From positions 7,837 to 71,836 of the forward strand of contig CANQEJ010000001.1 in the NCBI GenBank assembly GCA_947594925.1: a DNA stretch of 64,000 nucleotides. Direction: 5' to 3'. How positions within the stretch are numbered: position 1 is the first letter of the stretch; each line of letters starts with the position of its first letter. Below, one piece after another: positions 1,068 through 62,221 of this stretch. The DNA comes from an uncultured Bacilli bacterium (GTDB taxonomy: Bacteria; Bacillota_I; Bacilli_A; RF39; UBA660). Below the pieces are notes generated by a model. The model saw only the letters and a program-made list of their open reading frames with translations. It did not search any database and had not been told where the DNA came from. Position numbers and translations under genes: made by a program.

Positions 1068-1660
1068 TATATTAGCACCTCCAGATATTTATTGATATCA
1101 TCTAGAATATTAAATTTTTTTGCATAATCAAGAAGTAAAGGAAGATTTCTTTTATTTTTATCCTTTAAATATTCTGTTATAGCATATTTAGTTATTTCTA
1201 TATCTTGATTATCCCTATTCCTAAGTAAATCACACATACATCTTTCTGCATTATAACATTTTATAAATTGTCCTTGAGGACTTTTAATTTCAATTATACC
1301 TAAATCAAATAATTCTTTTTTTACAAAATGTAGTTTAACTTTTTTTGCTTTCCTTAAACTTCCATTATATCCTCTATTTACTGTAACATGATATTCACGT
1401 GGAACTGACTGGCAAAGATCTAAAAAATATAAAGATGTTTCATAAGAAAAAACTGCATTATTTCCATAAATTAAATTAAAATATTCATCACCCCAAGTAG
1501 AAGGTAAAACATATAAACCTTTTTTTACTCTTTCTAGTTTTTTATTAGTAACTAATCTTGTCAAAAAAATCTTATTTATATTTTTACTTACTACTTCTTT
1601 TGTAGTGATAATTCCATTATTTTTTTTAGCCAAATTTAATATAATGTCTTCTTTTTTCAT
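1067..1660 (-). CDS. abiEi: AbiEi-family antitoxin / transcriptional regulator
   Basis: 197 aa; the N-terminus (IILNLAKKNNGIITTKEV...KGLYVLP) is winged-HTH-like; it sits immediately upstream of and translationally coupled to the AbiEii gene. Confidence 0.7.
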   Translation of the reverse strand: MKKEDIILNLAKKNNGIITTKEVVSKNINKIFLTRLVTNKKLERVKKGLYVLPSTWGDEYFNLIYGNNAVFSYETSLYFLDLCQSVPREYHVTVNRGYNGSLRKAKKVKLHFVKKELFDLGIIEIKSPQGQFIKCYNAERCMCDLLRNRDNQDIEITKYAITEYLKDKNKRNLPLLLDYAKKFNILDDINKYLEVLI

Positions 1661-5428: not shown

Positions 5429-6031
5429 ATGAAAAAGAAATTTCTAGATTATGCCATGCAACAAATACAAACTAATAATACATATGACGAAATAAAATTA
5501 GAAGAATTAAGATATGGACTTGAAACATTTTATATGTTAGTAACTAAATTATTAGTTTCAATTTTAATTGCTATTATTTTAGGAATTTTTAAAGAATTTG
5601 TGCTTTTTCTAATATTCTACACTCCCTTGCGTAGTTTAGGATTTGGCTTTCATGCAAAAAATAGTTTAGAGTGTTGGATCATAAGCATACCTTTATTTAT
5701 ATTAATTCCATTAGGAATAAAATATTTAAATTTTAACCTGTTATTAATTCAAATATGTTTAATTTTAAGTACTATTTCATTTTTGTTTTTTGCTCCCGCA
5801 GACACGAAGAATAAACCACTAATTAATAGCAAAAAAAGATTACTAAATAAAAGTATTTTAGTAATCGTCAGTATTATATATTTAATAATTACTATTTTTA
5901 TTAAACAAAATTTAGTCTTAAATGCTATCTTTTTTGCAAGTATTTGGCAAGCAATATGTGTAAATCCTTTGACGTACAAATTATTTGGTCAGCCTTTTAA
6001 TAATTATAAAACTTATTTAACAGAGGTTTAA
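5429..6031 (+). CDS. agrB: AgrB-family membrane peptidase that processes the AgrD propeptide
   Basis: Polytopic membrane protein; the catalytic pair is conserved in FHAKNSLECW (His then Cys seven residues later, as in S. aureus HAPSSFWC); FAPADTKNKP matches AgrB YAPAATKKKP. Confidence 0.85.
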   Translation: MKKKFLDYAMQQIQTNNTYDEIKLEELRYGLETFYMLVTKLLVSILIAIILGIFKEFVLFLIFYTPLRSLGFGFHAKNSLECWIISIPLFILIPLGIKYLNFNLLLIQICLILSTISFLFFAPADTKNKPLINSKKRLLNKSILVIVSIIYLIITIFIKQNLVLNAIFFASIWQAICVNPLTYKLFGQPFNNYKTYLTEV

Positions 6032-6081
6032 ATATATTAATATAAATTTAAACAAAATTTTTAAAAAGGAGGTATAGTTAC

Positions 6082-6195
6082 ATGTTTTCAAGTATTTTAG
6101 CCAGTATTGGTGAACTTTTCTCAAAAAGTGCCACTAGCTTTAGTTGGTTTTGGTATCATGATGAAACTAAATGTCCAAAATCTTTAATTAAATAA
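6082..6195 (+). CDS. agrD: AgrD-like autoinducing-peptide precursor (37 aa); absent from the supplied ORF track
   Basis: ATG at 6082 lies 10 nt after the ribosome-binding site AAAGGAGG; sequence MFSSILASIGELFSKSATSFSWFWYHDETKCPKSLIK has an amphipathic leader, an aromatic core and a charged PKSL tail; it sits directly after agrB. Confidence 0.65.
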   Translation: MFSSILASIGELFSKSATSFSWFWYHDETKCPKSLIK

Positions 6196-7467
6196 TTACG
6201 AAGAAATAATTAGTTTAATTGTTACAATAAATAAATTACTAATTATTTCTTTTTTTGTTTTTATATTATTATCAGATATTTTATTAATGTAATCTAGTCC
6301 TATTCCACTTTTAATCTTCTTTGTAGAATATTGCTTAGTACCTATTTTATTTATATCTAAGGTATCATTAAATGTATTAATTATCTTAATATCTATATCC
6401 TTTCCGTTTTGAACTATATTAATAAATAAACATTTTTCTTTAGTTTTTAAAGTGGCTTCAATCGCATTATCTAATGAGATGCCAACTATATCACATAACT
6501 TTGAATACAATTTCTTGTTAATTTTATTAAATGTATCAAAATTAACTGTACTTTTTATATCAAAATTAATATTTTTATTATTAATTGTATTCATTTTATA
6601 AAAAATTAAACCTTGCAAACCCTTTGGAATATTAGTCATTTTGATAACAATATTGTATTCAGAATTATACTTTTTCAGTTTTTCTTCAATTAATTCTCTA
6701 ACATCAGAATCAACATAAGTTTTAATTGCTGCCAAGTCATTATTTAAATTATGTCTAAGAGTACTATAATCTTCAGCAATTTGTTCATAAGCCTTTATAT
6801 TCTTTAATAATACTTCATTTTCCATTGATATTCTTTGTTTTTTCAAAAACATATTTAAAATAATTAAAATCATCGCCATTATCGAGATAATAGAAACTAT
6901 AATAACAAAAAATATTTTATAATCTTTATAATTTTCTCCATACACTATTGTAAACAAATTAATTATGATAATTACTATTCCAAATAACATTTCGATATTT
7001 AATCTATCTTTAATTTTATTATTGATTTTAAAAATAACATTATGCAAAAGTAACACTAACAAATATAAAACACTCGCAAATATAATTGTAATTATTGTTT
7101 TATACCAATAATTATCATTTACTATAGTTATATTAGAAGAAATTAATGATAATAATCCCGCAAAGACGAACTCTACAAATATAGAAACAACTGAAATCAT
7201 AAGTGTTATCAATATAGTATCAGATATTTCCTTTTTATAAATAATTTTAAACTCTATAATTATTAAAGATAAAGTACAGAAGATTCTAAAAAAATTATTA
7301 AAATATAAATTTGTAAACATACTGATAGTAGATAATATTAGGATTAATAAAAAATTTGTAATTTTTTTATTATTTGACACACTAGACGTGCATTTTTTAA
7401 AACATAATGTATGAATTATATAAGAATAAATTTCGCTCATGTATCCTAGAATTAATTCAATAGTCAT
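6196..7467 (-). CDS. agrC: AgrC-like sensor histidine kinase (polytopic N-terminus, C-terminal GHKL ATPase domain)
   Basis: About six transmembrane segments, then a His-kinase core with G-box (GIGLDYINKIS); its stop overlaps the start of the upstream LytTR regulator. Confidence 0.7.
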   Translation of the reverse strand: MTIELILGYMSEIYSYIIHTLCFKKCTSSVSNNKKITNFLLILILSTISMFTNLYFNNFFRIFCTLSLIIIEFKIIYKKEISDTILITLMISVVSIFVEFVFAGLLSLISSNITIVNDNYWYKTIITIIFASVLYLLVLLLHNVIFKINNKIKDRLNIEMLFGIVIIIINLFTIVYGENYKDYKIFFVIIVSIISIMAMILIILNMFLKKQRISMENEVLLKNIKAYEQIAEDYSTLRHNLNNDLAAIKTYVDSDVRELIEEKLKKYNSEYNIVIKMTNIPKGLQGLIFYKMNTINNKNINFDIKSTVNFDTFNKINKKLYSKLCDIVGISLDNAIEATLKTKEKCLFINIVQNGKDIDIKIINTFNDTLDINKIGTKQYSTKKIKSGIGLDYINKISDNNIKTKKEIISNLFIVTIKLIISS

Positions 7468-8168
7468 ACTACCTCTTCCTTATATTTTTTAGATAATAAA
7501 CTAATTTCTTCATTATTATCTAATAAAATCTTCCCGTTTTTCCAATCATATCTACTTACTCTATCTGTATTAACAATACAAGAACGATGCGTTTTCTTAA
7601 AACGACTATCTAACTCTTTTAAAACTTCACTAAATGTCATATTAATTTTAAAAACATTTTTAGTTGTCTTAATAATTAACTTTCGTTCATCTTTGTCTCG
7701 ACAAATATATAAAATATCTTTCATATAAATACGTAAATTAATTTGATTGTTTCGATATTTAAATACCTTATTATCTACTTTTTTACTTAAAATTAAATTT
7801 AAACAATCACTTAATCTTTTTTCCATATCATCAAATTTTTCAATAAACTTAAATACTTTTAAAACATTATTATAAACTTTTTGTTCATAACTTGTGTGAT
7901 TAGTTAAAAATATAATTTCACTATCCCAATCATTTTCTCTGATTTTTAAAGCAATATTAATACCCGTTATTTTACTTTTCAAACATATATCTAAAATATA
8001 AATTTTTCTTTCAGACAAATCTTCTATCTCTTTTAATAAACCATCATCACATTTATTAAAAAATAGCAATTTTATTGGTTCTTCATATTTAAATAAAAAA
8101 GGACTAATAATACTCTGAGTTTTAAGTTTTTCTTTTTCTTCATCTTCGACAACAATAATTTTTGTCAT
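7464..8168 (-). CDS. agrA: LytTR-family response regulator (AgrA-like)
   Basis: Receiver domain (MTKIIVVEDEE...) plus a C-terminal LytTR DNA-binding domain; start moved to the ATG at 8166-8168 behind an AAGGGAG ribosome-binding site. Confidence 0.8.
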   Translation of the reverse strand: MTKIIVVEDEEKEKLKTQSIISPFLFKYEEPIKLLFFNKCDDGLLKEIEDLSERKIYILDICLKSKITGINIALKIRENDWDSEIIFLTNHTSYEQKVYNNVLKVFKFIEKFDDMEKRLSDCLNLILSKKVDNKVFKYRNNQINLRIYMKDILYICRDKDERKLIIKTTKNVFKINMTFSEVLKELDSRFKKTHRSCIVNTDRVSRYDWKNGKILLDNNEEISLLSKKYKEEVV

Positions 8169-8238
8169 TAGTTCAACTCCCTTTATATTTAAATGATTAT
8201 AACACATTTTCTCTATTAGCAAAATAAAAATAATAGTT

Positions 8239-13756: not shown

Positions 13757-14278
13757 TTATTTCCATATTTTCGATATAATTTCTTTTACAAATGATTTAT
13801 ATTCAACCTCAGAAACATCATTATCCGTTGCTTCTAAAAGACACAAGGGCGGAAATAAAACACACCACCAATTTTTGCCTTGCCCTTTTCCTAAAGTAAC
13901 AACTAAAGATTCATATTCTCCTTCATCATAAGTAATGCCTTTAAAAACTTTCTTCGGAAAATAATTATAACCATAACTTACTTCAAAATCATTACTATTT
14001 ACAATACTTTGAACATCTTGTTTTATATTACCAAGATTACTTTTAAGAATATCTCGACTTTCATTAATAGTTTTAGCATCTTTTAACATTAAAGCTAAAT
14101 CTTTATTTAAAGTATTTTTTACTTCATACTTTAACTTTTGGTCTTTTTGGTTATCACTACTTGCTATAACGCGAAAACGAATAGCTTCATCAGGGATAAT
14201 AATGTTTTCTGTAATACCTTTGGGAATTACAACACTACAACAAATTATTACCAAAGAAATTATCATAAATTTTTTCAT
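13757..14278 (-). CDS. spoIIR: Stage II sporulation protein R
   Basis: IPDEAIRFRVIASSD and NWWCVLFPPLC motifs; adjacent to prmC-prfA, as in B. subtilis. Confidence 0.85.
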   Translation of the reverse strand: MKKFMIISLVIICCSVVIPKGITENIIIPDEAIRFRVIASSDNQKDQKLKYEVKNTLNKDLALMLKDAKTINESRDILKSNLGNIKQDVQSIVNSNDFEVSYGYNYFPKKVFKGITYDEGEYESLVVTLGKGQGKNWWCVLFPPLCLLEATDNDVSEVEYKSFVKEIISKIWK

Positions 14279-17096: not shown

Positions 17097-19070
17097 GTGA
17101 AAGGTCGAAACTATATGAAAAAACTTTCTTTTTTTATTAAAAGTTGCATTTTTCTTTGTGTATTAGGAATTTTAACAATTTTTGGTTTATATACTTATGC
17201 TTATTTTAGTCCAAAGATAGAACTTAAAAGTGCCAATCAATTTTTTATATATGATAATGAAGAAAAGATTGTCTATGAAGGTTCTCAAACTACAGAGTGG
17301 GTTAAATTAGAAGATATTTCCCCTAACCTTATTAATGCTGTTATTAGTGTGGAAGATAAAAATTTTTATCAACATAAAGGCTTTGATTATTTAAGAATTG
17401 CCAAAGCTTTATTTAATAATTTAAAAAGTCGAAATATCGTCCAGGGTGCCTCGACCATTAGTCAGCAATATATTAAAAATATGTATTTAGATTTTGATAA
17501 AACTTGGTCCCGCAAGATTGAAGAAGCTTTTTTAACTCTAGAATTAGAAATGCACTATTCGAAAGATGAAATATTAGAAGGTTATTTAAACACCATTAAT
17601 TATGGACAAGGAAACTATGGAGTGGAAAATGCTAGTCAATATTATTTTAATAAAAGCGCTAAAGATTTAACCTTAGAAGAAGCCACTATTTTAGCTGGTA
17701 TTCCTAAAAGTCCTAGTAATTATAATCCGGTAAGTAATTTAGAAAAAGCTGTTAAAAGAGCTAATTTAGTAGCAGATTCCATGGTTAAAAATGAATATAT
17801 TACCGAAGAAGAAAAAGCTAAATTAAACTATAGTAATTTAAATATAGTAGGTAAAAGAAAAACTAATAATCTTCAAACTTTAATGTATTATCAAGATGCC
17901 GTCTTAGATGAGCTTAAAACCTTAGATAATATTCCAAAATCTTTAATTGATTCTGGTGGTCTTAAAATCTATACAACCCTTGATTTAAAGGCCCAGGAAA
18001 CTTTAGAAAATGCCATTTTAAATAATATGGATGAAAATACTAATTTAGAAGTAGCTAGTGTCATTATTAATCCTCAAAATGGTGGTGTTTCCGCTTTAGT
18101 AGGAGGCTACGATTATGCTAAAAGTCAATATAACCGAGCTATAAGTTCTAAAAGACAAGTTGGTTCAACTATGAAACCTCTTCTTTACTATGCTGCTTTA
18201 GAAAATAATTTCACTGCTGCTACTACCTTTTTATCAGCACCGACAACCTTTACTTTAGCCAATGATAAAACCTATGCTCCTTCTAATTACAATAATAAAT
18301 ATGGCAATAAAGAAATAACTATGGCAGCAGCTATTTCCTATTCAGATAATATTTACGCTGTTAAAACTCATCTTTTTTTAGGAGAAGATATGCTGGTTAA
18401 TATGGCTCATAAAATGGGAATTAAAGAAAAGCTCCAAGCTAATGCTTCGCTTCCTTTAGGAACTTCTGAAATGACTATGTTAGATTTTGCTAATGCTTAT
18501 ACAACTTTAGCGAGTGGCGGCTACAAAAAGGACTTACATTTTATTAAAAAGGTAGAAGATTTAAATGGTAATGTTTTATATGAATATAAAGGAAAAAAAG
18601 ATTTAGTGTTAAATGAAAATTATGTTTATATTTTAAATGAACTATTAACATCAACTTATAATAGTGCTTTTATTGATTATAATACGCCAACAGTTATGTC
18701 TCTATCTTCGCAACTTTCCCAAAAATATGCTCTTAAAACTGGTTCAACAGGGACAGATTGTTGGATAGTAGGATATAACAAAAATCATTTAATGCTGGTT
18801 TGGAACGGCTATGATGATAGTAGTGAAGTCAAAGTTAGTGATGGAACAATATCTAAAAAAATATGGTTAGAAACAACCGAAAGTTTAATGCAAAATAAAA
18901 ATAATACTTGGTATACTGCTCCTAAAAATATTATCGGCATGCCCCTAAATGCTATAACGGGAAAATATGACGAAAGTAGTAAAAACTCAAATATTTTCTA
19001 TTTTGTTAAAGGAAGTGAACCTGGCAGTAACAATGAAGTCCTAGTTTCTAAAACAGCCGAAGCAGAATAA
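17097..19070 (+). CDS. Class A penicillin-binding protein (glycosyltransferase GT51 plus transpeptidase)
   Basis: QGASTISQQ glycosyltransferase motif; STMKP (SxxK) transpeptidase motif; the true start may be the ATG at 17115. Confidence 0.9.
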   Translation: MKGRNYMKKLSFFIKSCIFLCVLGILTIFGLYTYAYFSPKIELKSANQFFIYDNEEKIVYEGSQTTEWVKLEDISPNLINAVISVEDKNFYQHKGFDYLRIAKALFNNLKSRNIVQGASTISQQYIKNMYLDFDKTWSRKIEEAFLTLELEMHYSKDEILEGYLNTINYGQGNYGVENASQYYFNKSAKDLTLEEATILAGIPKSPSNYNPVSNLEKAVKRANLVADSMVKNEYITEEEKAKLNYSNLNIVGKRKTNNLQTLMYYQDAVLDELKTLDNIPKSLIDSGGLKIYTTLDLKAQETLENAILNNMDENTNLEVASVIINPQNGGVSALVGGYDYAKSQYNRAISSKRQVGSTMKPLLYYAALENNFTAATTFLSAPTTFTLANDKTYAPSNYNNKYGNKEITMAAAISYSDNIYAVKTHLFLGEDMLVNMAHKMGIKEKLQANASLPLGTSEMTMLDFANAYTTLASGGYKKDLHFIKKVEDLNGNVLYEYKGKKDLVLNENYVYILNELLTSTYNSAFIDYNTPTVMSLSSQLSQKYALKTGSTGTDCWIVGYNKNHLMLVWNGYDDSSEVKVSDGTISKKIWLETTESLMQNKNNTWYTAPKNIIGMPLNAITGKYDESSKNSNIFYFVKGSEPGSNNEVLVSKTAEAE

Positions 19071-19072
19071 AA

Positions 19073-19100
19073 AAAGATACTAATTTACCGTAGTATCTTT
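19073..19100. terminator. Bidirectional hairpin shared by the convergent PBP and noc genes
   Basis: Perfect 10 bp stem AAAGATACTA / TAGTATCTTT with an 8 nt loop, flanked by an A-tract and a T-tract; it overlaps the last codons of noc. Confidence 0.45.
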
Positions 19101-20411
19101 ATTAATTTTTATAATTATTTGATATTCATTATCTAAATCAACTTCTTCACTATCCACATTAAAGCCCTTTTCTTTTAGAATATCAATGACATCTCTAGCT
19201 TCATTAATTGCACTTTTTAAATCTAGACCTGCTGCTTCTTTTTGTTTTTCCTCATAGTTAGGGTCTAATAAATCAACTTGGTCCATTGGGTCAAATAAAG
19301 TCTCTAGTTTTGGCTCATTAGCACTAGGTGCTGGAGTTAAATCAATAACTGGTTTATCACTATTTGGGGTTGGAACTGGTGTAGGAGCTGGTTGTGGAGC
19401 AACATTGAAGAATTTATTTTCCTCTTGTACCTGACCATTAGGTATAGGATTTTGAATTGGTTGATTATTTATAGGTTGATTACTTATAGGAGGTGTTTGA
19501 TTTATATTATTTGGCATCGTATTTGGCATAGCAGTTGGACTACTATTAAATATCGCTGTATCTCCTGTTAAAGTATTCATATTAGCAGATTCATCTTCTA
19601 AAAAATTAAAGAACTTATTTTGTGGTTTATCACCGGGAGCAGTTTCCGTAGTTGGTTTCGGTGGCTCTGGTCTTGGTGCTTGATTATCAAAGTTAAAAAA
19701 GGTATTATTAACCGGGTCATTAACCGGAGCAATATCAGTGGCATTATCTCTTATATTATCCACATCTTGAGTTATAGTTACCAAAGGTATTCCATCATTT
19801 GTATTCATTTGATCCTTTTTTATTTCGACATCTAACTGTCTTACAGTTAACCTTTCATTTATAATTTTTGCTAGCCACTCTTTTTGCTTTTCTTTATTAT
19901 TCACCGCAAGTAAACTGCGCGCATGTCTTTCGGAAATCTGGCCATTTAATAAAGCTTGTTGTACAGATTCATCTAGATTTAATAAACGTAATTTATTAGC
20001 AATAGCTGGTTGAGATACACCCATTTTCTTGGCTAATTGTTCTTGAGTTAGATATCCTTTATCTAAAATATTTTTATAACTTCGTGCTTCTTCGATAGCA
20101 GTTAAATCTTTTCTTTGGACGTTTTCAACTAAAGCTACCTCCGCACTAGTTTGGTCATCTATATTAGATATAATTGCTGGTACAGTAGTAAGTCCTGCCA
20201 TTCCGGCGGCACGATAACGACGTTCTCCGGCAATTATTTCATATTTAGCACCCATCTTACGTAATACTAATGGCTGAATTATTCCGTGTTGTTTAATAGA
20301 TTCTGAAAGTTCTAATAATTCTTGTTCATCAAAATTAACACGTGGTTGAAATTGATTAGGAATAATATCAGTTAGAGCTATTTGTAAAACTTCTTGATTT
20401 GTATTATTCAT
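19080..20411 (-). CDS. noc: ParB-family protein, Noc-like (nucleoid occlusion), with a long Pro/Asn/Gln-rich C-terminal extension
   Basis: ParB N-terminal domain (IPNQFQPR...IAGERR); HTH region GVSQPAIANKLRLL...ISERHARSLLAVNNKEKQ resembles B. subtilis Noc as recalled; lies immediately downstream of rsmG, the Noc position in Bacilli. Confidence 0.7.
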   Translation of the reverse strand: MNNTNQEVLQIALTDIIPNQFQPRVNFDEQELLELSESIKQHGIIQPLVLRKMGAKYEIIAGERRYRAAGMAGLTTVPAIISNIDDQTSAEVALVENVQRKDLTAIEEARSYKNILDKGYLTQEQLAKKMGVSQPAIANKLRLLNLDESVQQALLNGQISERHARSLLAVNNKEKQKEWLAKIINERLTVRQLDVEIKKDQMNTNDGIPLVTITQDVDNIRDNATDIAPVNDPVNNTFFNFDNQAPRPEPPKPTTETAPGDKPQNKFFNFLEDESANMNTLTGDTAIFNSSPTAMPNTMPNNINQTPPISNQPINNQPIQNPIPNGQVQEENKFFNVAPQPAPTPVPTPNSDKPVIDLTPAPSANEPKLETLFDPMDQVDLLDPNYEEKQKEAAGLDLKSAINEARDVIDILKEKGFNVDSEEVDLDNEYQIIIKINKDTTVN

Positions 20412-20465
20412 ACTAAATGCCCCTTTTTATTTTATTCTATAATTTATTTTAGCAATTTTTCCATT

Positions 20466-21176
20466 TTATTTCAATGGTTTCTTTTTTATTTTATCATAAC
20501 TTCTTGGATATTCTTTTGGGGTTGGTCCTTCTTTTCTTATTTTAATAATTGTTCTTTCGGAATTTTCCTTTGGTAATAAAAATTTAATTACTTGTTCTTC
20601 TTTACCTTGTAAAATTTGTAAAGATTTTTGGATATTAATATTTTCATCTTTACCTTTTAAAGCTATAAAATAACCATTAACTTTAACAAAAGGCAAACAT
20701 AGTTCTAATAAAATATCTAAGCTAGCTACAGCTCGAGCTGTCACTAAATCATACTCTTCTCTTGTTTTTAAGGCATACTCTTCACAACGACCATGAATTA
20801 AATTAACATCTTTCAATTCTAAAGTTTTAACAACTTCATTTAAAAACAAAATCTTTTTATTATTAGCATCGATAATATCTAATTTTAAATGAGGAAAACA
20901 AATTTTTAAAACTATTCCCGGAAATCCTGCGCCACTTCCGACATCTAAAACATTTTCTACATGAGTTAAATCTAGAGCTTTAACAATAGTTAAACTATCG
21001 TAAAAATGTTTTAAATAAACGTCTTCTTCTTTTATAATGGCGGTTAAGTTCATTTTCTGGTTCCAAAAAACTAACAATTCATAATAAGTATGTAATTGTT
21101 CTTTTTGCTTTGATGTTAGAATAATATTTAATTTTTCTATTTCCTTATTAAATTCTTCTTTATTCATTTTTTCCAT
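20466..21176 (-). CDS. rsmG: 16S rRNA m7G527 methyltransferase RsmG (GidB)
   Basis: SAM methyltransferase fold with GSGAGFPG motif; synteny with mnmG. Confidence 0.9.
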   Translation of the reverse strand: MEKMNKEEFNKEIEKLNIILTSKQKEQLHTYYELLVFWNQKMNLTAIIKEEDVYLKHFYDSLTIVKALDLTHVENVLDVGSGAGFPGIVLKICFPHLKLDIIDANNKKILFLNEVVKTLELKDVNLIHGRCEEYALKTREEYDLVTARAVASLDILLELCLPFVKVNGYFIALKGKDENINIQKSLQILQGKEEQVIKFLLPKENSERTIIKIRKEGPTPKEYPRSYDKIKKKPLK

Positions 21177-28044: not shown

Positions 28045-28127
28045 TTTGTTGATTAAATTATTTTACTTTTATTTTTAAAAAAAGTGGTATACAATGAAGA
28101 TGTTATTAAGGTAGTGGGGTGATAGGG

Positions 28128-34487: not shown

Positions 34488-36935
34488 ATGGATAAAATAG
34501 TTGAAAATAATATTGAAAATGAAGTAAAAACTTGTTTCTTAAATTATTCCATGAGCGTTATTGTAGCCCGTGCCTTACCAGATTTACGTGATGGTTTAAA
34601 ACCTGTACATCGTCGTATTTTATATTCAATGTATGAATCTGGATATACACCTGACAAACCTCATAAAAAGAGTGCGAGAATTGTCGGAGACGTTATGGGT
34701 AAATATCATCCACACGGCGACTCTTCAATTTATGATGCTATGGTTCGTATGGCTCAGACTTTTAGTTTTAGACATGTTTTAGTTGATGGTCATGGAAATT
34801 TTGGTAACTTAGATGGTGATGGAGCGGCTGCTTACCGTTATACCGAAGCGCGTTTATCAAAATTATCTTTGGAAATGGTTCGTGATATTAATAAGAATAC
34901 TGTTGATTTTATTCCAAACTTTGATGAAAGTGAACAAGAACCAGAAATATTACCAAGTAGATTTCCTAATATTTTAGTAAATGGAACAATGGGAATAGCA
35001 GTTGGTATGGCCACAAATATTCCTCCTCATAACTTAGGTGAGGTTATAGATGGATGTGTTGCTTACATTGATAATCCTGATATTGATACTGATGGTTTAA
35101 TGCAACATATTAAAGGACCAGATTTTCCTACCGGAGCTGTTATTTTAGGAAACAGTGGAATTAAAAAAGCTTATGAAACTGGCCGTGGTAGTATAACTAT
35201 TCGTGGTAAAGTAGAAATAGATGAAAGTGGAAATAAAACAAGAATAATAGTTAATGAACTTCCTTATCAAGTAAATAAAGCGGAATTCCAATCTCGTATT
35301 GGCCAACTTGTAAGAGATAAAATTATTGATGGTATTACAGATATTCATGAAGAATCAAATCTTGAAAATCCTGTCCGTGTTGTAATTTATCTTCGTAAAG
35401 ATGCTAATGCTAATGTTATTTTAAATAATTTATATAAACACACGCAATTACAAACATCATATGGTATAAATTTATTAATGTTAGACCAAAAACGTCCTAA
35501 AGTATTATCTCTAAAAGAAATTATTTCGAAATATATTGATTATCAAAAAGAAATTATTATTAGAAGAACTAAATTTGATTTAGAAAAAGCGGAAGCTCGT
35601 GTCCATATTTTAGATGGCTTAAAAATAGCTCTAGATAATCTAGATGAAGTTATTAAAATAATAAGAGGGTCAAATACGGATATTGAAGCGAAAGAGCAAT
35701 TAATTTCCCGTTTTGGTTTAGATGATGTTCAAGCTGATGCTATCTTAGAAATGCGTTTGCGTCGTTTAACTGGCTTAGAACGTGATAAAATCGAAAAAGA
35801 ATTAGCAGAATTAATGGCCAGTATTGCTGAATATCATGCAATTTTAGCTAGTGAAGAAAGAATTCTTGGTATTATTAAAGATGAATTAATTGAAATCAAG
35901 AATAAATATGCTGATGAAAGACGTACCGATATTGACATGACAGCTATTGAATATATTGAAGATGAATCTTTAATACCTGTGGAAAACATTATGGTAGCTT
36001 TAACTAATAAAGGATATATAAAACGTACACCTGTTGATAACTTCCGTTCTCAAAATAGAGGAGGAATAGGTGTAAAGGGTATGTCAACTAACGATGAAGA
36101 TTTTGTCGAACATTTGATTAATTTATCTACTCATGATTACGTATTATTCTTTACAAACAAAGGAAAAGTCTATCGTCTAAAAGGATACGAAATTCCTGAA
36201 TTTAGTCGTCAATCTAAGGGATTACCGATAATTAATCTTTTACAAATAGAAAAAGATGAAATGATTTCTTCCGTTATTGCAATTAATTCTGAAGAAGATG
36301 TTAGTTACTTACTATTTGTTACTAAGAACGGTTTAGTTAAGAAGACAAAAGTTGAAGAATTTGATAAAATAAGAAATACTGGTAAGATATGTATTAATCT
36401 TAAAGATACTGATGAATTAATCTCTGTTAAAAAAACGACGGGTAATGAATATATTCTTCTTGGTTCTAACTTAGGACGTATGGTTAAATTTAATGAAAAT
36501 GAAGTTAGAGTAATGGGCCGTACCGCCAGTGGAGTAAAAGGAATTAATTTAAATGGTGGCAAATGTGTAGGTGCAGAAATTGTTACTGATGATAAAGAGA
36601 TTTTAATTGTAACCGAAAAAGGTTATGGAAAGAAAACAGCTATTTCTGAATATAGAGAAACTAAACGTGGCAGCAAGGGTGTTAAAGCTCTAAATATTAC
36701 TGATAAAAATGGAACTATCTCGGCATTGAAATTAGTAGAAGAAAATAAAGATTTAATGATAGTTACTAATAGTGGTATTATTATGAGAATGCCATTAGAC
36801 CAAATATCTACACTAGGAAGAGTTACTCAAGGAGTTCGCCTAATCAATTTAAAAGACAATCAGGAAGTAGCTACAATTAGTTTAGTTGATAAAGAAGAAC
36901 AAGATGTTTCACGTGAAACATTAGATGAAGAATAA
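34488..36935 (+). CDS. gyrA: DNA gyrase subunit A
   Basis: Active-site region [11 protein letters not shown]; GyrA-box in the C-terminal beta-pinwheel; the last codons contain parS copy 1. Confidence 0.97.
36904..36921. promoter_or_regulatory. parS: parS site, copy 1 (ATGTTTCACGTGAAACAT; the 16 bp core TGTTTCACGTGAAACA matches the parS consensus perfectly)
   Basis: Perfect 18 bp palindrome read directly from the sequence; lies inside the gyrA 3' end. Confidence 0.8.
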
Positions 36936-36942
36936 TAATAAA

Positions 36943-36975
36943 AAAAGAAGACTATAAAAGTAGTTTTCTTTTTTT
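36943..36975 (+). terminator. gyrA terminator hairpin
   Basis: Stem AGAAGACTA / TAGTTTTCT (one G-U pair) followed by a T-run; sits between parS copies 1 and 2. Confidence 0.4.
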
Positions 36976-36993
36976 ATGTTTCACGTGAAACAT
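36976..36993. promoter_or_regulatory. parS: parS site, copy 2 (perfect 18 bp palindrome)
   Basis: Identical 18-mer, intergenic. Confidence 0.8.
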
Positions 36994-37066
36994 TGATAAT
37001 TATTTTAAATTTATTTGCTAGTGTACCGTAATTTTGTTTTAATTAATATAGAAAGTAGGTAATAAT

Positions 37067-37966
37067 ATGTTTTATCGAATATTCAAATTAAAGAGAACCC
37101 CACTATGGAATATTATTTCTTTATTACTTTTATTTATTAGCGTTTACGCAACCTCCAAAGCGGAATTTCAATTATTTAAAATCTTAATTTTTTTAGCTTT
37201 AATAGTTAGTTTAATTCCTATAATAAAAATATTGCTTAAAGAAAATCCTAAAGATGGATATATTTATTCTCCCATAGTAATTGATAATAATAGTAATATT
37301 TATTTATTAAAAGAAAAAATAAATGTTATAACAATCGCATTACCAATAGTTTTATTATTTATATTAATTACTGGTGATTATACTAATGCTTTATTATTTG
37401 ATTATATAGTAATGATTTTCCCCTTATTTATTGATATAAATGATTTATTTAGAATATTAAATGAAAATAGACTAGCTAAAAATGAAGATTCATTAATTAA
37501 ATTAATCCAAAAAGGGCGAAATATATTTTATAATGTGTCTAAAGTAAATAGTTTAAAGAAAGAGAATTTTAAGTTTAAAATAGATAATAATCCTAAATTA
37601 GTTAGCTTATCCTTTAATTATGAAAATTATGAAGAATTATTATTAAAATTAAACTATGTTTCACGTGAAACATTGGAAGATAAACCAGAAATTAATAATA
37701 GTAATAATCCAGGTGAACAAAACATTTTTACTCAAATGCCTAATATTACAGTGCCTCAAGAAGTTCCTCAAACTGTAACTGTTCCTGAAAATAATGTCCT
37801 AAATAGTAATAATAGTAATAATAGTAATAATACTTCAATTGCTAATCAAGAACCAAATCAAAATATAAACAGTCCTGTTGATAACTCGAATAATTCCAAT
37901 AACAATAACGATGTTTCACGTGAAACATCAACTAATTCATCAGACATATTTAACAATTTTAAATAA
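37067..37966 (+). CDS. Hypothetical membrane protein with an Asn/Ser-rich low-complexity C-terminus; contains parS copies 3 and 4
   Basis: 299 aa ORF with several predicted transmembrane segments in the N-terminal half; no family recognised. Confidence 0.45.
   Translation: MFYRIFKLKRTPLWNIISLLLLFISVYATSKAEFQLFKILIFLALIVSLIPIIKILLKENPKDGYIYSPIVIDNNSNIYLLKEKINVITIALPIVLLFILITGDYTNALLFDYIVMIFPLFIDINDLFRILNENRLAKNEDSLIKLIQKGRNIFYNVSKVNSLKKENFKFKIDNNPKLVSLSFNYENYEELLLKLNYVSRETLEDKPEINNSNNPGEQNIFTQMPNITVPQEVPQTVTVPENNVLNSNNSNNSNNTSIANQEPNQNINSPVDNSNNSNNNNDVSRETSTNSSDIFNNFK
37656..37673. promoter_or_regulatory. parS: parS site, copy 3 (perfect 18 bp palindrome)
   Basis: Identical 18-mer inside the ORF 37067-37966. 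Confidence 0.8.
37802..37832 (+). repeat. Tandem 9 bp repeat (AATAGTAAT) x3.4 encoding an NSN run
   Basis: Read directly; in-frame within the ORF 37067-37966. Confidence 0.5.
37911..37928. promoter_or_regulatory. parS: parS site, copy 4 (perfect 18 bp palindrome)
   Basis: Identical 18-mer near the 3' end of the ORF 37067-37966. Confidence 0.8.
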
Positions 37967-37983
37967 TGTTTCACGTGAAACAT
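37966..37983. promoter_or_regulatory. parS: parS site, copy 5 (perfect 18 bp palindrome)
   Basis: Identical 18-mer starting at the last base of the ORF's stop codon. Confidence 0.8.
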
Positions 37984-38589: not shown

Positions 38590-40209
38590 ATGGATTATAA
38601 AGTATTATATCGTAAATACCGACCGCTAACTTTTGATGATGTGACAGGTCAGGGGGCTGTTGTTAAAACATTAAAAAATGCTATTATGCAACAAAAAATA
38701 TCACATGCTTATATCTTTACTGGTCCAAGAGGGACAGGCAAAACATCGCTAGCTAAAATCTTTGCTAGAAGCATAAACTGTGAGAATTGTCAAGATGGAA
38801 ACCCTTGTATGACATGTGAAATGTGTAAATCGTTTAATGATAATCCCGATATTATTGAAATTGATGCAGCATCTAATAATGGTGTTGATGAAATAAGAGA
38901 GTTAATTAATAATATAAAACTTGCTCCAAGCAATTCTAAATATAAAGTATATATAATAGATGAAGTGCATATGCTATCGCAAAGTGCTTTCAATGCTCTG
39001 TTATTAACTTTAGAAGAACCTCCTGCCCATGTTGTATTTATCTTAGCTACAACGGATATTCAAAACGTGCCAATAACAATTCTTTCTAGAACGCAGCGTT
39101 TTGATTTTACAAGGATATCTCCTTCGGATATAGAAAAAAGGTTAGCTTATGTATGTGAACAAGAAAACATCAAAATTACATCAGAAGCTCTTTCAGAAAT
39201 AGCTTATTTAGCTGAGGGTGGATTAAGAGATGCCTTAAGTATTTTAGACCAGTTAGCTTCGCAAACTGTTGATGAAATAACAATAGATACAGTATTAAAT
39301 ACCTTTGGAACAATATCAACGGCGAAAATTGCTGAGTTTATTAATACAATTGAAAATAATGATATCCAAGGTATGTTAGAAATATTACAGGAATTTAAAA
39401 ATTCGAGCATTGATAGCAAGGTGTTTATAAATAAATTATTAAATGCTTTAAAGGATTTAGCATTTGACATTAAAACTAGTAAAGTCGAAGAAAAAAACTT
39501 GACTTTTGAAGATATCAAAAAATTAATTCTAGAATTAAATGATACTCTTTCTAATAAACTTATGAGTGTCGACCCTTATATTTTAATTGAGATGATTGTC
39601 TTAAGCTATATGGGTAAACAAGAAACACCTGATATTTTAGAAAAAACCGCAGAATATTTCCCGGGAAATAGTGAAGAAGATAAAAAAACTCCCGAAAAAG
39701 TCATAAATGAACCAAAAAAAGAAGAAAAAAATACTGTAAATGATACAAAATTAGAAGAATTTAAAAAAATTAGAATTAATAACTGTTTGGCAGCTGCTCA
39801 AAAAAGTTTCTTAATTGATTTAAAAAACAAATGGCAAGAATTTATAAAATTTATTAAAACTGTGGATAACAATATATACTTAAATATTTGTGATACCAAT
39901 TTAATTGTTTCTTCAGATTGTTATTTTATAATTGAAACAATAACTGATAGCTCAGCAGGTTTAATTAATATTAGTACAGAAAAGATAGAAGAATATTTTA
40001 ATAAGCAGTATAATTTAAAATATAAAATAATTGCTGTTAATAGCGATGAGTGGAATATTATAAAGAAGCAATATATAAATGACTTAAATAATCATATAAA
40101 ATATGAAATAAAGGAAGAAGTTCCATTGTATATTGAAAATAAAGAAGATATTGAAAATATAGCAGGGGATATTTTTGATAAAAATAAAATAGAAATAGTA
40201 AAGGAATAA
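38590..40209 (+). CDS. dnaX: DNA polymerase III subunits gamma/tau
   Basis: Walker A GPRGTGKTS; zinc module CENCQDGNPCMTCEMC; SRT sensor motif. Confidence 0.95.
   Translation: MDYKVLYRKYRPLTFDDVTGQGAVVKTLKNAIMQQKISHAYIFTGPRGTGKTSLAKIFARSINCENCQDGNPCMTCEMCKSFNDNPDIIEIDAASNNGVDEIRELINNIKLAPSNSKYKVYIIDEVHMLSQSAFNALLLTLEEPPAHVVFILATTDIQNVPITILSRTQRFDFTRISPSDIEKRLAYVCEQENIKITSEALSEIAYLAEGGLRDALSILDQLASQTVDEITIDTVLNTFGTISTAKIAEFINTIENNDIQGMLEILQEFKNSSIDSKVFINKLLNALKDLAFDIKTSKVEEKNLTFEDIKKLILELNDTLSNKLMSVDPYILIEMIVLSYMGKQETPDILEKTAEYFPGNSEEDKKTPEKVINEPKKEEKNTVNDTKLEEFKKIRINNCLAAAQKSFLIDLKNKWQEFIKFIKTVDNNIYLNICDTNLIVSSDCYFIIETITDSSAGLINISTEKIEEYFNKQYNLKYKIIAVNSDEWNIIKKQYINDLNNHIKYEIKEEVPLYIENKEDIENIAGDIFDKNKIEIVKE
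39656..39669. promoter_or_regulatory. Noc-binding-site-like palindrome ATTTCCCGGGAAAT (perfect match to the B. subtilis NBS consensus), inside dnaX
   Basis: Read directly from the sequence; a GC-rich 14-mer in an AT-rich genome. Confidence 0.55.
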
Positions 40210-40520: not shown

Positions 40521-41125
40521 TGATATATCCTGATGATTTAAATTTTGCTATCGAGAATTTCAAAAAAATTCCGGGCGTTGGTGAAAAGAGTGCAGAAAGA
40601 CAAGTTCTATCTATCTTAAAATTATCTGAAGAAGAAGTAACTGATTTTGCTAATAGTTTAATAAATGCTAAAAAAAGATTACACCCTTGCGAAATATGTG
40701 GAAACTTAACTAGTAATGACATATGTGATATCTGCGCCAATGAAAAACGTGATAAAAATCTAATTTGTATTCTAGAAGATTTCAAAAGTTTAGTGGCTTT
40801 TGAAAAATCTGGAAACTTCACCGGAACATATCATGTATTAAATGGCTTAATTTCGCCAATTGATGACCGAGGCCCTGAAGATATCAATTTAGCAAGTCTT
40901 CTCAAACGAATTGAAAATGTCGATGATTGTGAAATAATTATAGCTTTAAAATCAAGTGTTGAGGGAGAAGCTACCACGATGTTCATAAATAAGATTGTCA
41001 AAAATAAAAATGTTAAAATATCTCGCTTGCCATACGGAATTCCTATGGGAGCTGATATAGATTATCTTGACCCAATTTCTCTTGATAAAGCTTTAAAAGA
41101 CCGAAAAATTATATCAGAAGAATAA
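40520..41125 (+). CDS. recR: Recombination protein RecR
   Basis: C4 zinc finger CEICGNLTSNDICDIC; Toprim domain. Confidence 0.95.
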   Translation: MIYPDDLNFAIENFKKIPGVGEKSAERQVLSILKLSEEEVTDFANSLINAKKRLHPCEICGNLTSNDICDICANEKRDKNLICILEDFKSLVAFEKSGNFTGTYHVLNGLISPIDDRGPEDINLASLLKRIENVDDCEIIIALKSSVEGEATTMFINKIVKNKNVKISRLPYGIPMGADIDYLDPISLDKALKDRKIISEE

Positions 41126-41138
41126 TTTCCCGGGAAAT
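41125..41138. promoter_or_regulatory. Noc-binding-site-like palindrome ATTTCCCGGGAAAT (perfect), starting at the last base of the recR stop codon
   Basis: Read directly from the sequence. Confidence 0.55.
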
Positions 41139-62178: not shown

Positions 62179-62221
62179 TATCATAATGATAAATTTACCA
62201 TATAATATTATGGTGAACATT

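What the first reader, a model, noticed from the sequence alone, without database searches (positions are those of the whole stretch)
19080..20411. Noc-like ParB homologue without soj-spo0J, without the N-terminal membrane helix, and with a 160 aa disordered C-terminal insert carrying three FFNF motifs
The gene sits directly downstream of rsmG, the Noc position in Bacilli. A convergent PBP gene follows it instead of soj-spo0J. Its HTH region (VSQPAIANKLRLLNL...ISERHARSLLAVNNKEKQ) carries Q, K and R at three positions that published ParB/Noc specificity work places as R, T/H and G in ParB but Q, K and R in Noc, as I recall it. The protein starts about 15 residues earlier than B. subtilis Noc, so it lacks the amphipathic membrane-targeting helix. 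Instead, between the DNA-binding core and the C-terminal dimerisation helix, it carries a Pro/Asn/Gln-rich linker with three short aromatic motifs (NTFFNF, NKFFNF, NKFFNV). These might take over membrane or partner binding.
Basis: inference. Interest (0 to 1): 0.7.

Follow-up and report, generated by a model that had tools for sequence, protein, structure and literature searches.

The report
Noc variant lacking its membrane helix
This gene encodes a nucleoid-occlusion (Noc) type ParB protein from a large group of uncultured gut Bacilli; it has lost the N-terminal membrane-anchoring helix that Noc is known to need and instead carries a long acidic disordered linker with conserved paired-phenylalanine motifs, so Noc must reach its effector function differently here.

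Summary
ORF 19080-20411(-) is a 443-aa ParB-family protein directly downstream of rsmG. It has Noc-type DNA-specificity residues (Q134, K140, R162; N145 replaces the fourth Noc lysine) and a Noc-type C-terminal domain. There is no room for an N-terminal extension, and a roughly 180-aa disordered insert carries three xxFFNx motifs.

New evidence:
- Perfect Noc-binding sites (ATTTCCCGGGAAAT) occur twice in the window and 23 times in 80 related loci, against 0.003 expected. The Noc-NBS system is therefore real in this clade.
- The window also holds five perfect parS sites within 1.1 kb near oriC. A separate parS-binding ParB almost certainly exists elsewhere, so "without soj-spo0J" describes synteny, not absence.
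- The architecture is a large family of more than 150 clusters at 50% identity. All members lack the N-terminal helix and all have acidic linkers.
- Only the middle motif (PNKFFNFLEDExANMN) is widely conserved.

I read the protein as a CTP-dependent, NBS-binding Noc whose effector module moved into the linker. That module most likely tethers to the membrane. However, the acidic context and conserved polar residues keep a protein-partner motif as a strong rival. This is a new variant of a known kind, of moderate interest.

The parts
19080..20411 (-). Whole gene: a 443-aa Noc-like ParB-family protein
   Evidence: ORF. Pfam ParB_N plus HTH_ParB. TIGR04285 nucleoid_noc at 285.9 bits. Start codon, ribosome-binding site and upstream in-frame stop.
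20446..20474 (-). Promoter-like site (TTGAAA-17-TG-TAAAAT) just upstream of the gene, overlapping the rsmG stop codon
   Evidence: Consensus scan, 10 of 12 positions with an extended -10 TG. This is a consensus match only.
20115..20393 (-). N-terminal CTP-binding domain (residues 7-99) with GERRxRA (G62-R65) and ENxQR (E96, N97, Q99, R100) motifs. It begins about 22 residues later than B. subtilis Noc, so helices alpha1 (the membrane-targeting sequence) and alpha2 are absent.
   Evidence: Pfam ParB_N at E=2.5e-33. Invariant columns in the 52-sequence alignment. Alignment to PDB 7ol9 and 7nfu.
19815..20111 (-). Helix-turn-helix DNA-binding domain (residues 101-199)
   Evidence: Pfam HTH_ParB at E=4.3e-33. 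AlphaFold2 pLDDT above 90.
19926..20012 (-). Stretch holding the four specificity positions: Q134 (20010-20012), K140 (19992-19994), N145 (19977-19979) and R162 (19926-19928). These correspond to positions 173/179/184/201 in Caulobacter ParB numbering.
   Evidence: Alignments to Noc and Spo0J structures. The family is Q-K-(N/S/T)-R. Meaning of the positions comes from PMC7383237.
19260..19805 (-). Insert of about 180 aa (residues 203-384) between Noc-model positions 196 and 202. It is Pro/Asn/Thr/Asp/Gln-rich, has net charge -13 and is predicted disordered.
   Evidence: Profile coordinates. AlphaFold2 pLDDT below 50 for about residues 230-367. Composition. Family linkers have a median length of 163 aa and are all acidic.
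19728..19790 (-). Conserved segment just after the DNA-binding domain (residues 208-228, IPLV..P.I..I.NNA.DIN). It has a weakly predicted helix at 217-223. Its role is unknown.
   Evidence: P209 and D226 are nearly invariant. pLDDT is about 58.
19689..19709 (-). FF motif 1 (NNTFFNF, residues 235-241). It is found only in the closest relatives.
19575..19625 (-). Conserved island PQNKFFNFLEDESANMN (residues 263-279), the family hallmark. F267 and F268 are invariant. K266, N269, L271, E272, E274 and N277 are at least 90% conserved. The island lies about 66-78 aa after the DNA-binding domain.
   Evidence: Alignment. Present in 70 of 80 species loci. Spacing. Hydrophobic moment 0.52-0.63, the highest in the linker apart from the 11-aa LETLFDPMDQV window at 369 (0.646) at its C-terminal edge. 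pLDDT is slightly above 50 only at residues 266-273.
19401..19421 (-). FF motif 3 (ENKFFNV, residues 331-337). It is clade-specific; in more distant relatives this position reads IEVLDD.
   Evidence: Weak DNA-level similarity to motif 2 (repeat family D5, 85% over 20 nt).
19092..19298 (-). Noc-type C-terminal dimerisation domain (residues 372-440: two helices and two strands)
   Evidence: Matches TIGR04285 positions 202-255 at E=5e-6. AlphaFold2 pLDDT 84-94.
39656..39669 (.). Perfect Noc-binding site ATTTCCCGGGAAAT, located inside dnaX. It is a presumed nucleation site for this protein.
   Evidence: flanks
41125..41138 (.). Perfect Noc-binding site ATTTCCCGGGAAAT, located at the end of recR
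   Evidence: flanks
20466..21176 (-). rsmG (gidB), the conserved upstream neighbour. This is the canonical Noc position.
   Evidence: TIGR00138 at 177 bits. The same order is seen in relatives.

Best explanation
The gene encodes the nucleoid-occlusion protein (Noc) orthologue of a large clade of uncultured gut Bacilli.

**Shown or strongly inferred**
- It keeps the ParB-type CTP-binding domain.
- Its helix-turn-helix carries the NBS-specific residues Q173, K179 and R201.
- It has a Noc-type dimerising C-terminal domain.
- Its cognate 14-16 bp NBS palindromes are maintained in these genomes.
- It should therefore nucleate on NBS sites, close into a CTP clamp and spread, as B. subtilis Noc does.

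**Inferred**
- The N-terminal amphipathic helix, which in canonical Noc is both the membrane anchor and the CTP-gated element, is missing.
- The effector function has therefore been transferred to the long disordered linker between the DNA-binding and C-terminal domains.
- In that linker, a conserved island (PNKFFNFLEDExANMN) and extra clade-specific NKFF copies provide short hydrophobic, amphipathic contacts.
- Summed over many spread Noc clamps, these contacts would tether NBS-flanking DNA to the cytoplasmic membrane and exclude the divisome.
- Membrane binding would then depend on avidity and not on the CTP-triggered release of an N-terminal helix.

**Sub-probabilities**
- Noc-type NBS binder: about 0.9.
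- The linker island is the effector element: about 0.75.
- That effector acts by direct membrane insertion rather than through a partner protein: about 0.4.

A separate canonical ParB, encoded elsewhere, serves the parS cluster.
For: **Noc identity**
- Domain hits.
- CTP motifs GERR and ENxQR are invariant in the family.
- Q134, K140 and R162 align to Noc Q/K/R and differ from Spo0J R/H/G.
- The literature says Q173 and R201 switch specificity and one lysine at 179 or 184 suffices. NBS-specific variants are Q/R types, while dual binders mostly have T or S at position 201 (PMC7383237).

**Cognate NBS sites**
- The window has 2 perfect NBS.
- In 1.37 Mb of window plus related loci there are 25 perfect NBS against 0.003 expected.
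- 25 of all 30 CCCGGG hexamers lie inside an NBS, with an extended palindrome AATTATTTCCCGGGAAATAATT.

**The N-terminal helix is missing**
-.
- It is also missing in all 80 species loci and in all 146 representatives at 50% identity.
- By contrast, 120 canonical Bacillaceae Noc all start MKHxFSRFFGxGEK, are QKKR, and have no internal N[KR]FF.

**The island as effector**
- It is the only strongly conserved linker element and is present in 70 of 80 species.
- Its hydrophobic moment of 0.52-0.63 equals or exceeds that of known membrane-targeting peptides.
- An ungapped position-specific scoring matrix (PSSM) built from the island finds its best match in B. subtilis and G. thermoleovorans Noc exactly at the N-terminal helix plus alpha2 (SFSRFFGLGEKEQE, PFSRLFSFGEKEQE). 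Shuffle p-values are 0.054 and 0.0075.
- Paired Phe residues are 1.6-fold enriched in linkers across the wider family.

**Why an effector is needed**
Canonical Noc needs its membrane helix for nucleoid occlusion (PMC8429893).
Against: - The linker is acidic in every family member (median net charge -24.5), and the island itself is typically -2. Known membrane-targeting helices, including Noc's, are cationic, and a K2E change weakens Noc binding.
- Several polar residues of the island (N265, N269, E272, E274, N277) are nearly invariant. That fits a specific protein interface better than a generic amphipathic helix.
- Profile methods see no significant similarity between the island and the canonical N-terminus. 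The best hhalign hit is PNKF~PNRF at P=0.12.
- AlphaFold2 predicts coil with pLDDT 50-60 for the island.
- About 30-45% of the more divergent family representatives lack a recognisable island.
- No biochemical data exist for any member.
Confidence: 0.4

Rival explanations
1. The protein has the same Noc-type NBS-binding clamp, but the NKFF island is a short linear motif that binds a specific protein. The partner could be a membrane or divisome protein such as FtsA, SepF, EzrA, MinD/MinJ or DivIVA. Alternatively, the island could mimic the FtsZ C-terminal tail. Occlusion or tethering would then be indirect, or Noc would act as a direct division inhibitor as SlmA does.
For: Polar as well as aromatic residues in the island are nearly invariant. 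The context is acidic and disordered, as is typical of linear motifs. The island sits at a fairly fixed distance (66-78 aa) from the DNA-binding domain, while the rest of the linker varies from 22 to 286 aa. Some lineages carry multiple copies.
Against: No protein partner is known for any Noc. The motif was not found in any other protein in 1.4 Mb of clade sequence, so there is no sign of a shared docking motif. No candidate partner genes were present in the held loci to test. The Gln required for a beta-clamp-binding motif is not conserved.
Confidence: 0.27
2. The aromatic motifs are 'stickers' in a disordered 'spacer' region. They drive self-association or condensation of Noc-DNA complexes into higher-order assemblies. 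They would not contact the membrane or a partner protein.
For: The wider family shows variable numbers of short Phe motifs. Examples are SFNSFGAGPQE repeated about 8 times in P0316 and FNFGQP repeated 4 times in P0310. F-x(0-2)-F is 1.6-fold enriched over shuffled linkers. The spacers are Pro/Asn/Gln/Ser-rich.
Against: The strong net negative charge of the linkers disfavours homotypic condensation. The main island is conserved in sequence, not just in composition. This reading also leaves the loss of the membrane anchor unexplained.
Confidence: 0.12
3. The linker is a fast-evolving, functionally neutral spacer. In this clade Noc no longer tethers DNA to the membrane. It would keep another role instead, for example control of replication initiation as reported for S. 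aureus Noc, or chromosome organisation.
For: The linker is highly variable in length (95-357 aa) and sequence. 25 of 119 divergent representatives lack any Phe pair. A replication role for Noc appears in the literature (PMC5540599, listed; title and abstract only, not read).
Against: F267 and F268 are invariant and eight neighbouring positions are nearly invariant across proteins that are only about 50% identical. That indicates purifying selection on the island.
Confidence: 0.1
4. The protein is the chromosome's centromere-binding ParB (Spo0J equivalent) and serves the five parS sites in the window. It would not be a Noc.
For: It is the only ParB-family gene in the 64 kb around oriC. Public annotations call its relatives 'ParB/RepB/Spo0J family partition protein'. 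It scores below the Noc model cut-off.
Against: Q at position 173 and R at 201 are invariant in the family. parS-specific variants invariably have R173, and G is preferred at 201. Perfect NBS sites are massively enriched in the clade. The C-terminal domain matches the Noc model. No ParA lies adjacent.
Confidence: 0.03

Closest known systems
Bacillus subtilis / Geobacillus thermoleovorans Noc (YyaA; PDB 7ol9, 7nfu, 7ng0, 6y93)
   Same: It occupies the same genomic slot after rsmG. It has the same CTP-binding N-terminal domain and helix-turn-helix (E about 1e-55 to the PDB chains). It shares the NBS-type specificity residues Q173, K179 and R201, the same NBS palindrome in the genome and the same type of C-terminal domain.
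   Different: It lacks the first roughly 22 residues, which are the membrane-targeting helix alpha1 and the conserved helix alpha2 that holds it autoinhibited. Position 184 is N/S/T instead of the near-universal K (versus QKKR in 119 of 120 canonical proteins). The short basic linker is replaced by a 95-357 aa acidic disordered linker carrying the NKFF island. soj-spo0J does not follow it. It scores below the NCBIfam Noc cut-off.
Chromosomal ParB / Spo0J (PDB 6sdk, 1vz0, 4umk)
   Same: It has the same fold and CTP-clamp domains, with a bit score equal to that for Noc over the first 200 residues.
   Different: Spo0J has R/H/T/G at the four specificity positions and binds parS. This protein has Q/K/N/R. 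It has no ParA partner gene adjacent, and its C-terminal domain matches the Noc model.
N-terminal membrane-targeting sequences of Noc (MKHSFSRFFGLGEKEQE) and SepF (MSMKNKLKNFFSMEDEE; the SepF sequence is from my own memory and was not verified here)
   Same: A basic residue followed by a Phe pair, a small residue, a hydrophobic residue and then an acidic run. The hydrophobic moment is comparable. The best PSSM match of the island in canonical Noc falls on this segment.
   Different: The island is internal, not terminal. It has only one basic residue and is net negative. It is present in one to three copies. The similarity is not significant by hhalign or hmmsearch, so this is an analogy at best.
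SlmA (the Escherichia coli nucleoid-occlusion factor)
   Same: It is a functional analogue: a site-specific DNA-binding protein that blocks division over the nucleoid.
   Different: SlmA is an unrelated TetR-family fold that acts by binding the FtsZ tail directly. It is relevant only if the partner-motif rival is correct.

Membership tests
Noc (nucleoid occlusion protein, TIGR04285) | ParB-type N-terminal CTP-binding domain with GERRxRA and ENxQR motifs | tested here: met
   Pfam ParB_N at E=2.5e-33. G62, E63, R64, R65, E96, N97, Q99 and R100 are invariant in the family.
Noc (nucleoid occlusion protein, TIGR04285) | Specificity-switching residues Q173 and R201, plus at least one permissive Lys at position 179 or 184 | tested here: met
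   Q134, K140 and R162. The rule comes from PMC7383237.
Noc (nucleoid occlusion protein, TIGR04285) | Lys at position 184, which is almost invariant in described Noc proteins | tested here: not met
   N145 here and N/S/T across the clade. 119 of 120 canonical Noc are QKKR.
Noc (nucleoid occlusion protein, TIGR04285) | Cognate NBS palindromes in the genome | tested here: met
   2 perfect sites in the window. 25 perfect sites in 1.37 Mb against 0.003 expected.
Noc (nucleoid occlusion protein, TIGR04285) | Noc-type C-terminal dimerisation domain | tested here: met
   The C-terminal 78 aa match model positions 202-255 at E=5e-6. The domain is folded in AlphaFold2.
Noc (nucleoid occlusion protein, TIGR04285) | N-terminal 10-aa amphipathic membrane-targeting helix (alpha1) and conserved helix alpha2 | tested here: not met
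   The protein starts at the equivalent of B. subtilis Noc residue 23-26. There is an in-frame stop six codons upstream of the ATG. The helices are also absent in all relatives examined.
Noc (nucleoid occlusion protein, TIGR04285) | Whole-protein score at or above the curated NCBIfam cut-off (315 bits) | tested here: not met
   285.9 bits. Relatives are annotated only as ParB/RepB/Spo0J family proteins.
Noc (nucleoid occlusion protein, TIGR04285) | Gene order rsmG-noc-soj-spo0J | tested here: inconclusive
   The rsmG-noc part is kept. soj-spo0J is absent within +-10 kb in the window and in 80 relatives. Synteny is typical of the family but does not strictly define it.
Noc (nucleoid occlusion protein, TIGR04285) | CTP-dependent membrane binding and inhibition of division over the nucleoid | not testable with these tools
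   This needs liposome co-sedimentation and in vivo assays.
Chromosomal ParB / Spo0J | R173 and a small residue (G/S/T/C) at position 201, giving parS specificity | tested here: not met
   Q134 and R162.
Chromosomal ParB / Spo0J | Partner ParA/Soj gene adjacent | tested here: not met
   No Soj hit in the window or in 80 loci.

The most novel reading that the evidence does not exclude
In a very large, so far undescribed Noc subfamily of uncultured gut Bacilli, the membrane or effector contact has been moved out of the CTP-gated N-terminus. It now sits in a long acidic disordered tether as one or more NKFF-type motifs. Nucleoid occlusion in this subfamily would then run without the CTP-controlled release of an N-terminal helix. 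It would work either by avidity-driven membrane insertion or by recruiting an as yet unknown protein partner. That would be a second, mechanistically distinct way to couple a ParB-type CTP clamp to the cell envelope.
Probability: 0.5. Interest if true: 0.7.

Novelty: new variant of a known kind. Interest (0 to 1): 0.55.

Why it matters
The current model of Noc rests on the N-terminal amphipathic helix. That helix is required for nucleoid occlusion, and its exposure is the output of the CTP switch (PMC8429893).

This finding shows a subfamily of more than 150 clusters at 50% identity that keeps the NBS sites, the CTP motifs and the Noc C-terminal domain. Yet it lacks that helix entirely. So either the effector contact has been rebuilt inside a disordered linker, or Noc has a helix-independent function.

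The subfamily offers a natural experiment on how ParB-type CTP clamps are wired to outputs. It also supplies a defined 16-residue peptide to test.

In practical terms, these proteins are currently annotated as generic ParB partition proteins because they fall below the Noc model cut-off. That would mislead inferences about chromosome segregation in these uncultured gut lineages.

Tried and rejected
1. Homology of the island to the canonical N-terminal helix. I ran hhalign and hmmsearch of a 132-sequence island profile against 120 canonical Noc. They gave only a trivial PNKF~PNRF match (P=0.12). The ungapped PSSM result is therefore treated as suggestive analogy, not homology.
2. A second ParB or a Soj nearby. 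tblastn found none in the window and none in 80 related loci with +-10 kb flanks. About 1.3 kb beyond the left end and 4.7 kb beyond the right end were inspected through contigs of near-identical strains, and they also had none.
3. A beta-clamp-binding motif (QxxLF type). Rejected because the Gln is not conserved; the family consensus is PNKFF.
4. A motif shared with other proteins of the clade. A PSSM scan of all ORFs in 1.4 Mb found only chance-level partial hits.
5. Mimicry of the FtsZ tail. Not testable, because no ftsZ, sepF or minD is present in the held loci.
6. Recent DNA duplication as the origin of the three motifs. Only a weak 20-nt similarity links motifs 2 and 3.
7. AlphaFold2 evidence for a helix or docking of the island. 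There is none, only pLDDT 50-60 and coil.
8. Literature. No paper in the searchable library links Noc to these lineages or describes a long-linker Noc.
Full report
**What is there**

The window spans a replication origin. GC skew changes sign near 27-28 kb and dnaA starts at 28119. On the minus strand the order is rnpA-yidC-jag-mnmE-mnmG-rsmG, followed by the ORF in question at 19080-20411. This ORF is 443 aa and converges on a PBP1A-family gene at 17097-19070. The ATG at 20411 has an AAAGGGG ribosome-binding site, and an in-frame TAA lies six codons upstream. The short N-terminus is therefore real and not an annotation artefact. A promoter-like site lies just upstream.

Pfam finds ParB_N at residues 7-99 and HTH_ParB at 101-199. 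The best NCBIfam model is nucleoid_noc (TIGR04285). It scores 285.9 bits in two stretches, just under the 315-bit cut-off. The last 78 residues on their own match positions 202-255 of that model at E=5e-6. So the protein is a Noc with about 180 residues inserted between model positions 196 and 202.

AlphaFold2, run with a 52-sequence alignment, gives three regions:
- Residues 1-204 are confidently folded.
- Residues about 230-367 have pLDDT below 50, which indicates disorder.
- A helix-helix-strand-strand domain at 370-440 is folded.

**Noc or ParB?**

Alignment to the solved B. subtilis and G. thermoleovorans Noc and to B. subtilis Spo0J places Q134, K140, N145 and R162 at the four positions that determine specificity. 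According to Jalal et al. 2020 (PMC7383237):
- Q173 and R201 switch recognition from parS to NBS.
- A single lysine at position 179 or 184 is sufficient to permit this.
- parS-specific variants always have R173.
- Dual binders mostly have T or S at position 201.

The protein is therefore predicted to be NBS-specific, even though it lacks the usual K184.

The genome agrees with this prediction:
- The window has two perfect ATTTCCCGGGAAAT sites.
- In 80 orthologous loci from different species plus the window (1.37 Mb, 27.6% GC) there are 25 perfect sites, where 0.003 are expected.
- 25 of the 30 CCCGGG hexamers present lie inside such a site.
- The palindrome extends to AATTATTTCCCGGGAAATAATT.

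This is strong cis-evidence that a Noc-NBS system operates throughout the clade.

**The parS cluster and the missing soj-spo0J**

The window also contains five perfect TGTTTCACGTGAAACA sites within 1.08 kb (36905-37982), about 9 kb from dnaA, against 0.07 expected. A Q173/R201 protein should not bind these. I therefore infer that a canonical ParB is encoded elsewhere in the genome. The searches I could run found none:
- No second ParB paralogue in the window.
- No ParB or Soj within +-10 kb of the orthologue in any of 80 related genomes.
- None in the few kb beyond the window ends, as seen in near-identical strains.

It is probably not correct as a statement about the genome. I could not inspect the rest of any genome.

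**The family**

A word-indexed search returned more than 100 clusters (at 90% identity) of 384-639 aa, all with the same architecture. A full HMMER scan of representatives at 50% identity returned 150 of 150 top hits with this long architecture, at 242-982 aa. All of them start within a few residues of the PNRFQPR motif, and none has an N-terminal extension.

The genome records are uncultured gut MAGs (metagenome-assembled genomes). They are labelled Bacilli, Tenericutes, Mycoplasma sp., Candidatus Coprovivens, Ventrenecus, Onthocola, Coprobacillus sp. CAG:605, Firmicutes CAG:460 and Clostridium CAG:609. All 77 of the 80 orthologues for which the four positions could be read have Q-K-(N/S/T)-R.

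As a contrast, I examined 120 canonical Bacillaceae Noc of 251-294 aa:
- All start MKHxFSRFFGxGEK.
- 119 are QKKR.
- None has an internal N[KR]FF.

The two architectures are thus mutually exclusive in the sets examined. This amounts to essentially one phylogenetic contrast.

**The linker and its motifs**

The island P-N-K-F-F-N-F-L-E-D-E-x-A-N-M-N corresponds to window residues 263-279. F267 and F268 are invariant, and K266, N269, L271, E272, E274 and N277 are at least 90% conserved, in proteins that otherwise share about 50% identity and have unalignable linkers.

- The island is present in 70 of 80 species.
- It lies 66-78 residues after the DNA-binding domain, whereas the distance to the C-terminal domain ranges from 22 to 286 residues.
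- Motifs 1 and 3 occur only in the closest relatives. Other lineages have their own extra NKFF copies.
- In more divergent representatives the island is split, altered or absent. Some instead carry arrays such as SFNSFGAGPQE repeated about 8 times or FNFGQP repeated 4 times.
- Paired Phe residues are 1.6-fold enriched over shuffled linkers.

A second conserved segment (IPLV..DIN, residues 208-228) follows the DNA-binding domain. Its role is unknown.

**Mechanism**

In canonical Noc, the first 10 residues form the membrane-targeting helix. This helix is required for nucleoid occlusion. In the apo state it is held against the N-terminal domain together with the conserved helix alpha2, and it is thought to be released by CTP-induced clamp closure (PMC8429893). 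Both helices are absent here. The CTP motifs, the NBS sites and the dimerisation domain are all under selection. The island is therefore the obvious candidate for the effector element.

Arguments for a direct membrane role:
- The island is amphipathic. Its hydrophobic moment of 0.52-0.63 is the highest in the linker apart from one window (0.646, residue 369) at its C-terminal edge, and it equals or exceeds that of known targeting peptides.
- Its pattern is basic residue, Phe-Phe, small residue, hydrophobic residue, acidic run. This mirrors SFSRFFGLGEKEQE of Noc.
- An ungapped PSSM of the island finds its best match in both solved Noc sequences exactly there, with shuffle p-values of 0.054 and 0.0075.

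Arguments against a direct membrane role:
- Profile-profile and HMM searches find nothing significant.
- AlphaFold2 leaves the island as low-confidence coil.
- Every linker in the family is strongly acidic, with a median net charge of -24.5, and the island is typically -2. Known membrane-targeting helices are cationic.
- The conserved polar residues look more like a specific protein interface.

I therefore commit to 'effector element relocated to the linker' at about 0.75. Within that, direct membrane tethering is the single most likely mode (about 0.4 overall), and a protein-partner linear motif is a close rival (about 0.27). Sticker-type self-association and a neutral spacer are less likely.

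**Comparison and novelty**

The protein works like Noc in DNA recognition and probably in CTP-dependent clamping. It fails three membership criteria: the N-terminal helices, K184 and the curated score cut-off. I file it as a new variant of a known kind, not as a plain member. I found no paper that describes a long-linker or helix-less Noc, or that links Noc to these lineages. Public records name the relatives only as ParB/RepB/Spo0J partition proteins.

**Verdict**

- The Noc interpretation is strongly supported, and new NBS evidence adds to it.
- The 'no soj-spo0J' claim holds locally, but the parS cluster argues for a ParB elsewhere.
- The functional role of the FF motifs remains an inference with a serious rival.
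- Interest is moderate (0.55). This is a large, unrecognised Noc subfamily that challenges the generality of the N-terminal-helix/CTP-switch model, and it offers a short peptide that can be tested directly.

Noticed in passing
window 36905-37982: Five perfect parS sites (TGTTTCACGTGAAACA) lie within 1.08 kb, about 9 kb from dnaA. Three are inside coding sequence and are read as the peptide VSRET: the gyrA C-terminus ([10 protein letters not shown]) and twice in ORF 37067-37966. This is a dense centromere-like cluster with no ParB or ParA gene in the window.
   Followed up: partly
L029 5872 and 9901; also about 5.8-6.0 kb in L017, L019, L023, L028, L036, L040, L041 and L048: In many relatives a perfect NBS sits at a recurrent position in the jag-mnmE intergenic gap, about 4.1 kb upstream of noc. 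In L029 another lies directly between rsmG and noc. The window itself has no NBS at these positions.
   Followed up: partly
window 37067-37966 (+): A 299-aa predicted membrane protein with an Asn/Ser-rich tail. It has no NCBIfam match and hosts two of the parS sites within its coding sequence.
   Followed up: no
window 213-1660 (-): An AbiEi/AbiEii (PF13338/PF08843) toxin-antitoxin or abortive-infection pair at the left edge of the window.
   Followed up: no
window 5429-8222: An Agr-like quorum-sensing locus: AgrB (5429-6031, +), a 423-aa protein with no Pfam hit on record (6196-7467, -), which I guess from its position could be the sensor kinase, and a LytTR regulator (7464-8222, -). In the near-identical contig L082, a 37-aa ORF lies next to agrB.
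   Followed up: no
window 13757-14278, 62186-62998; L084/L085 beyond the right end: Sporulation genes are present (spoIIR and a yabG-like U57 peptidase; spoVG, yabP and yabQ lie just outside the window). Yet several related MAGs are labelled Tenericutes or Mycoplasma sp. This organism looks like a spore-forming member of the uncultured Bacilli orders.
   Followed up: no
P0316 and P0310 (family representatives at 50% identity): Some distant family members carry tandem arrays of short Phe motifs in the linker. P0316 has APSFNSFGAGPQE about 8 times, and P0310 has FNFGQP 4 times. These resemble FG-repeat or sticker-spacer sequences.
   Followed up: partly
window 19070-19100: The inverted repeat AAAGATACTA...TAGTATCTTT spans the 9-bp gap between the convergent PBP gene and noc. 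It overlaps the noc stop codon and is probably a shared bidirectional terminator. The terminator scan did not flag it.
   Followed up: no
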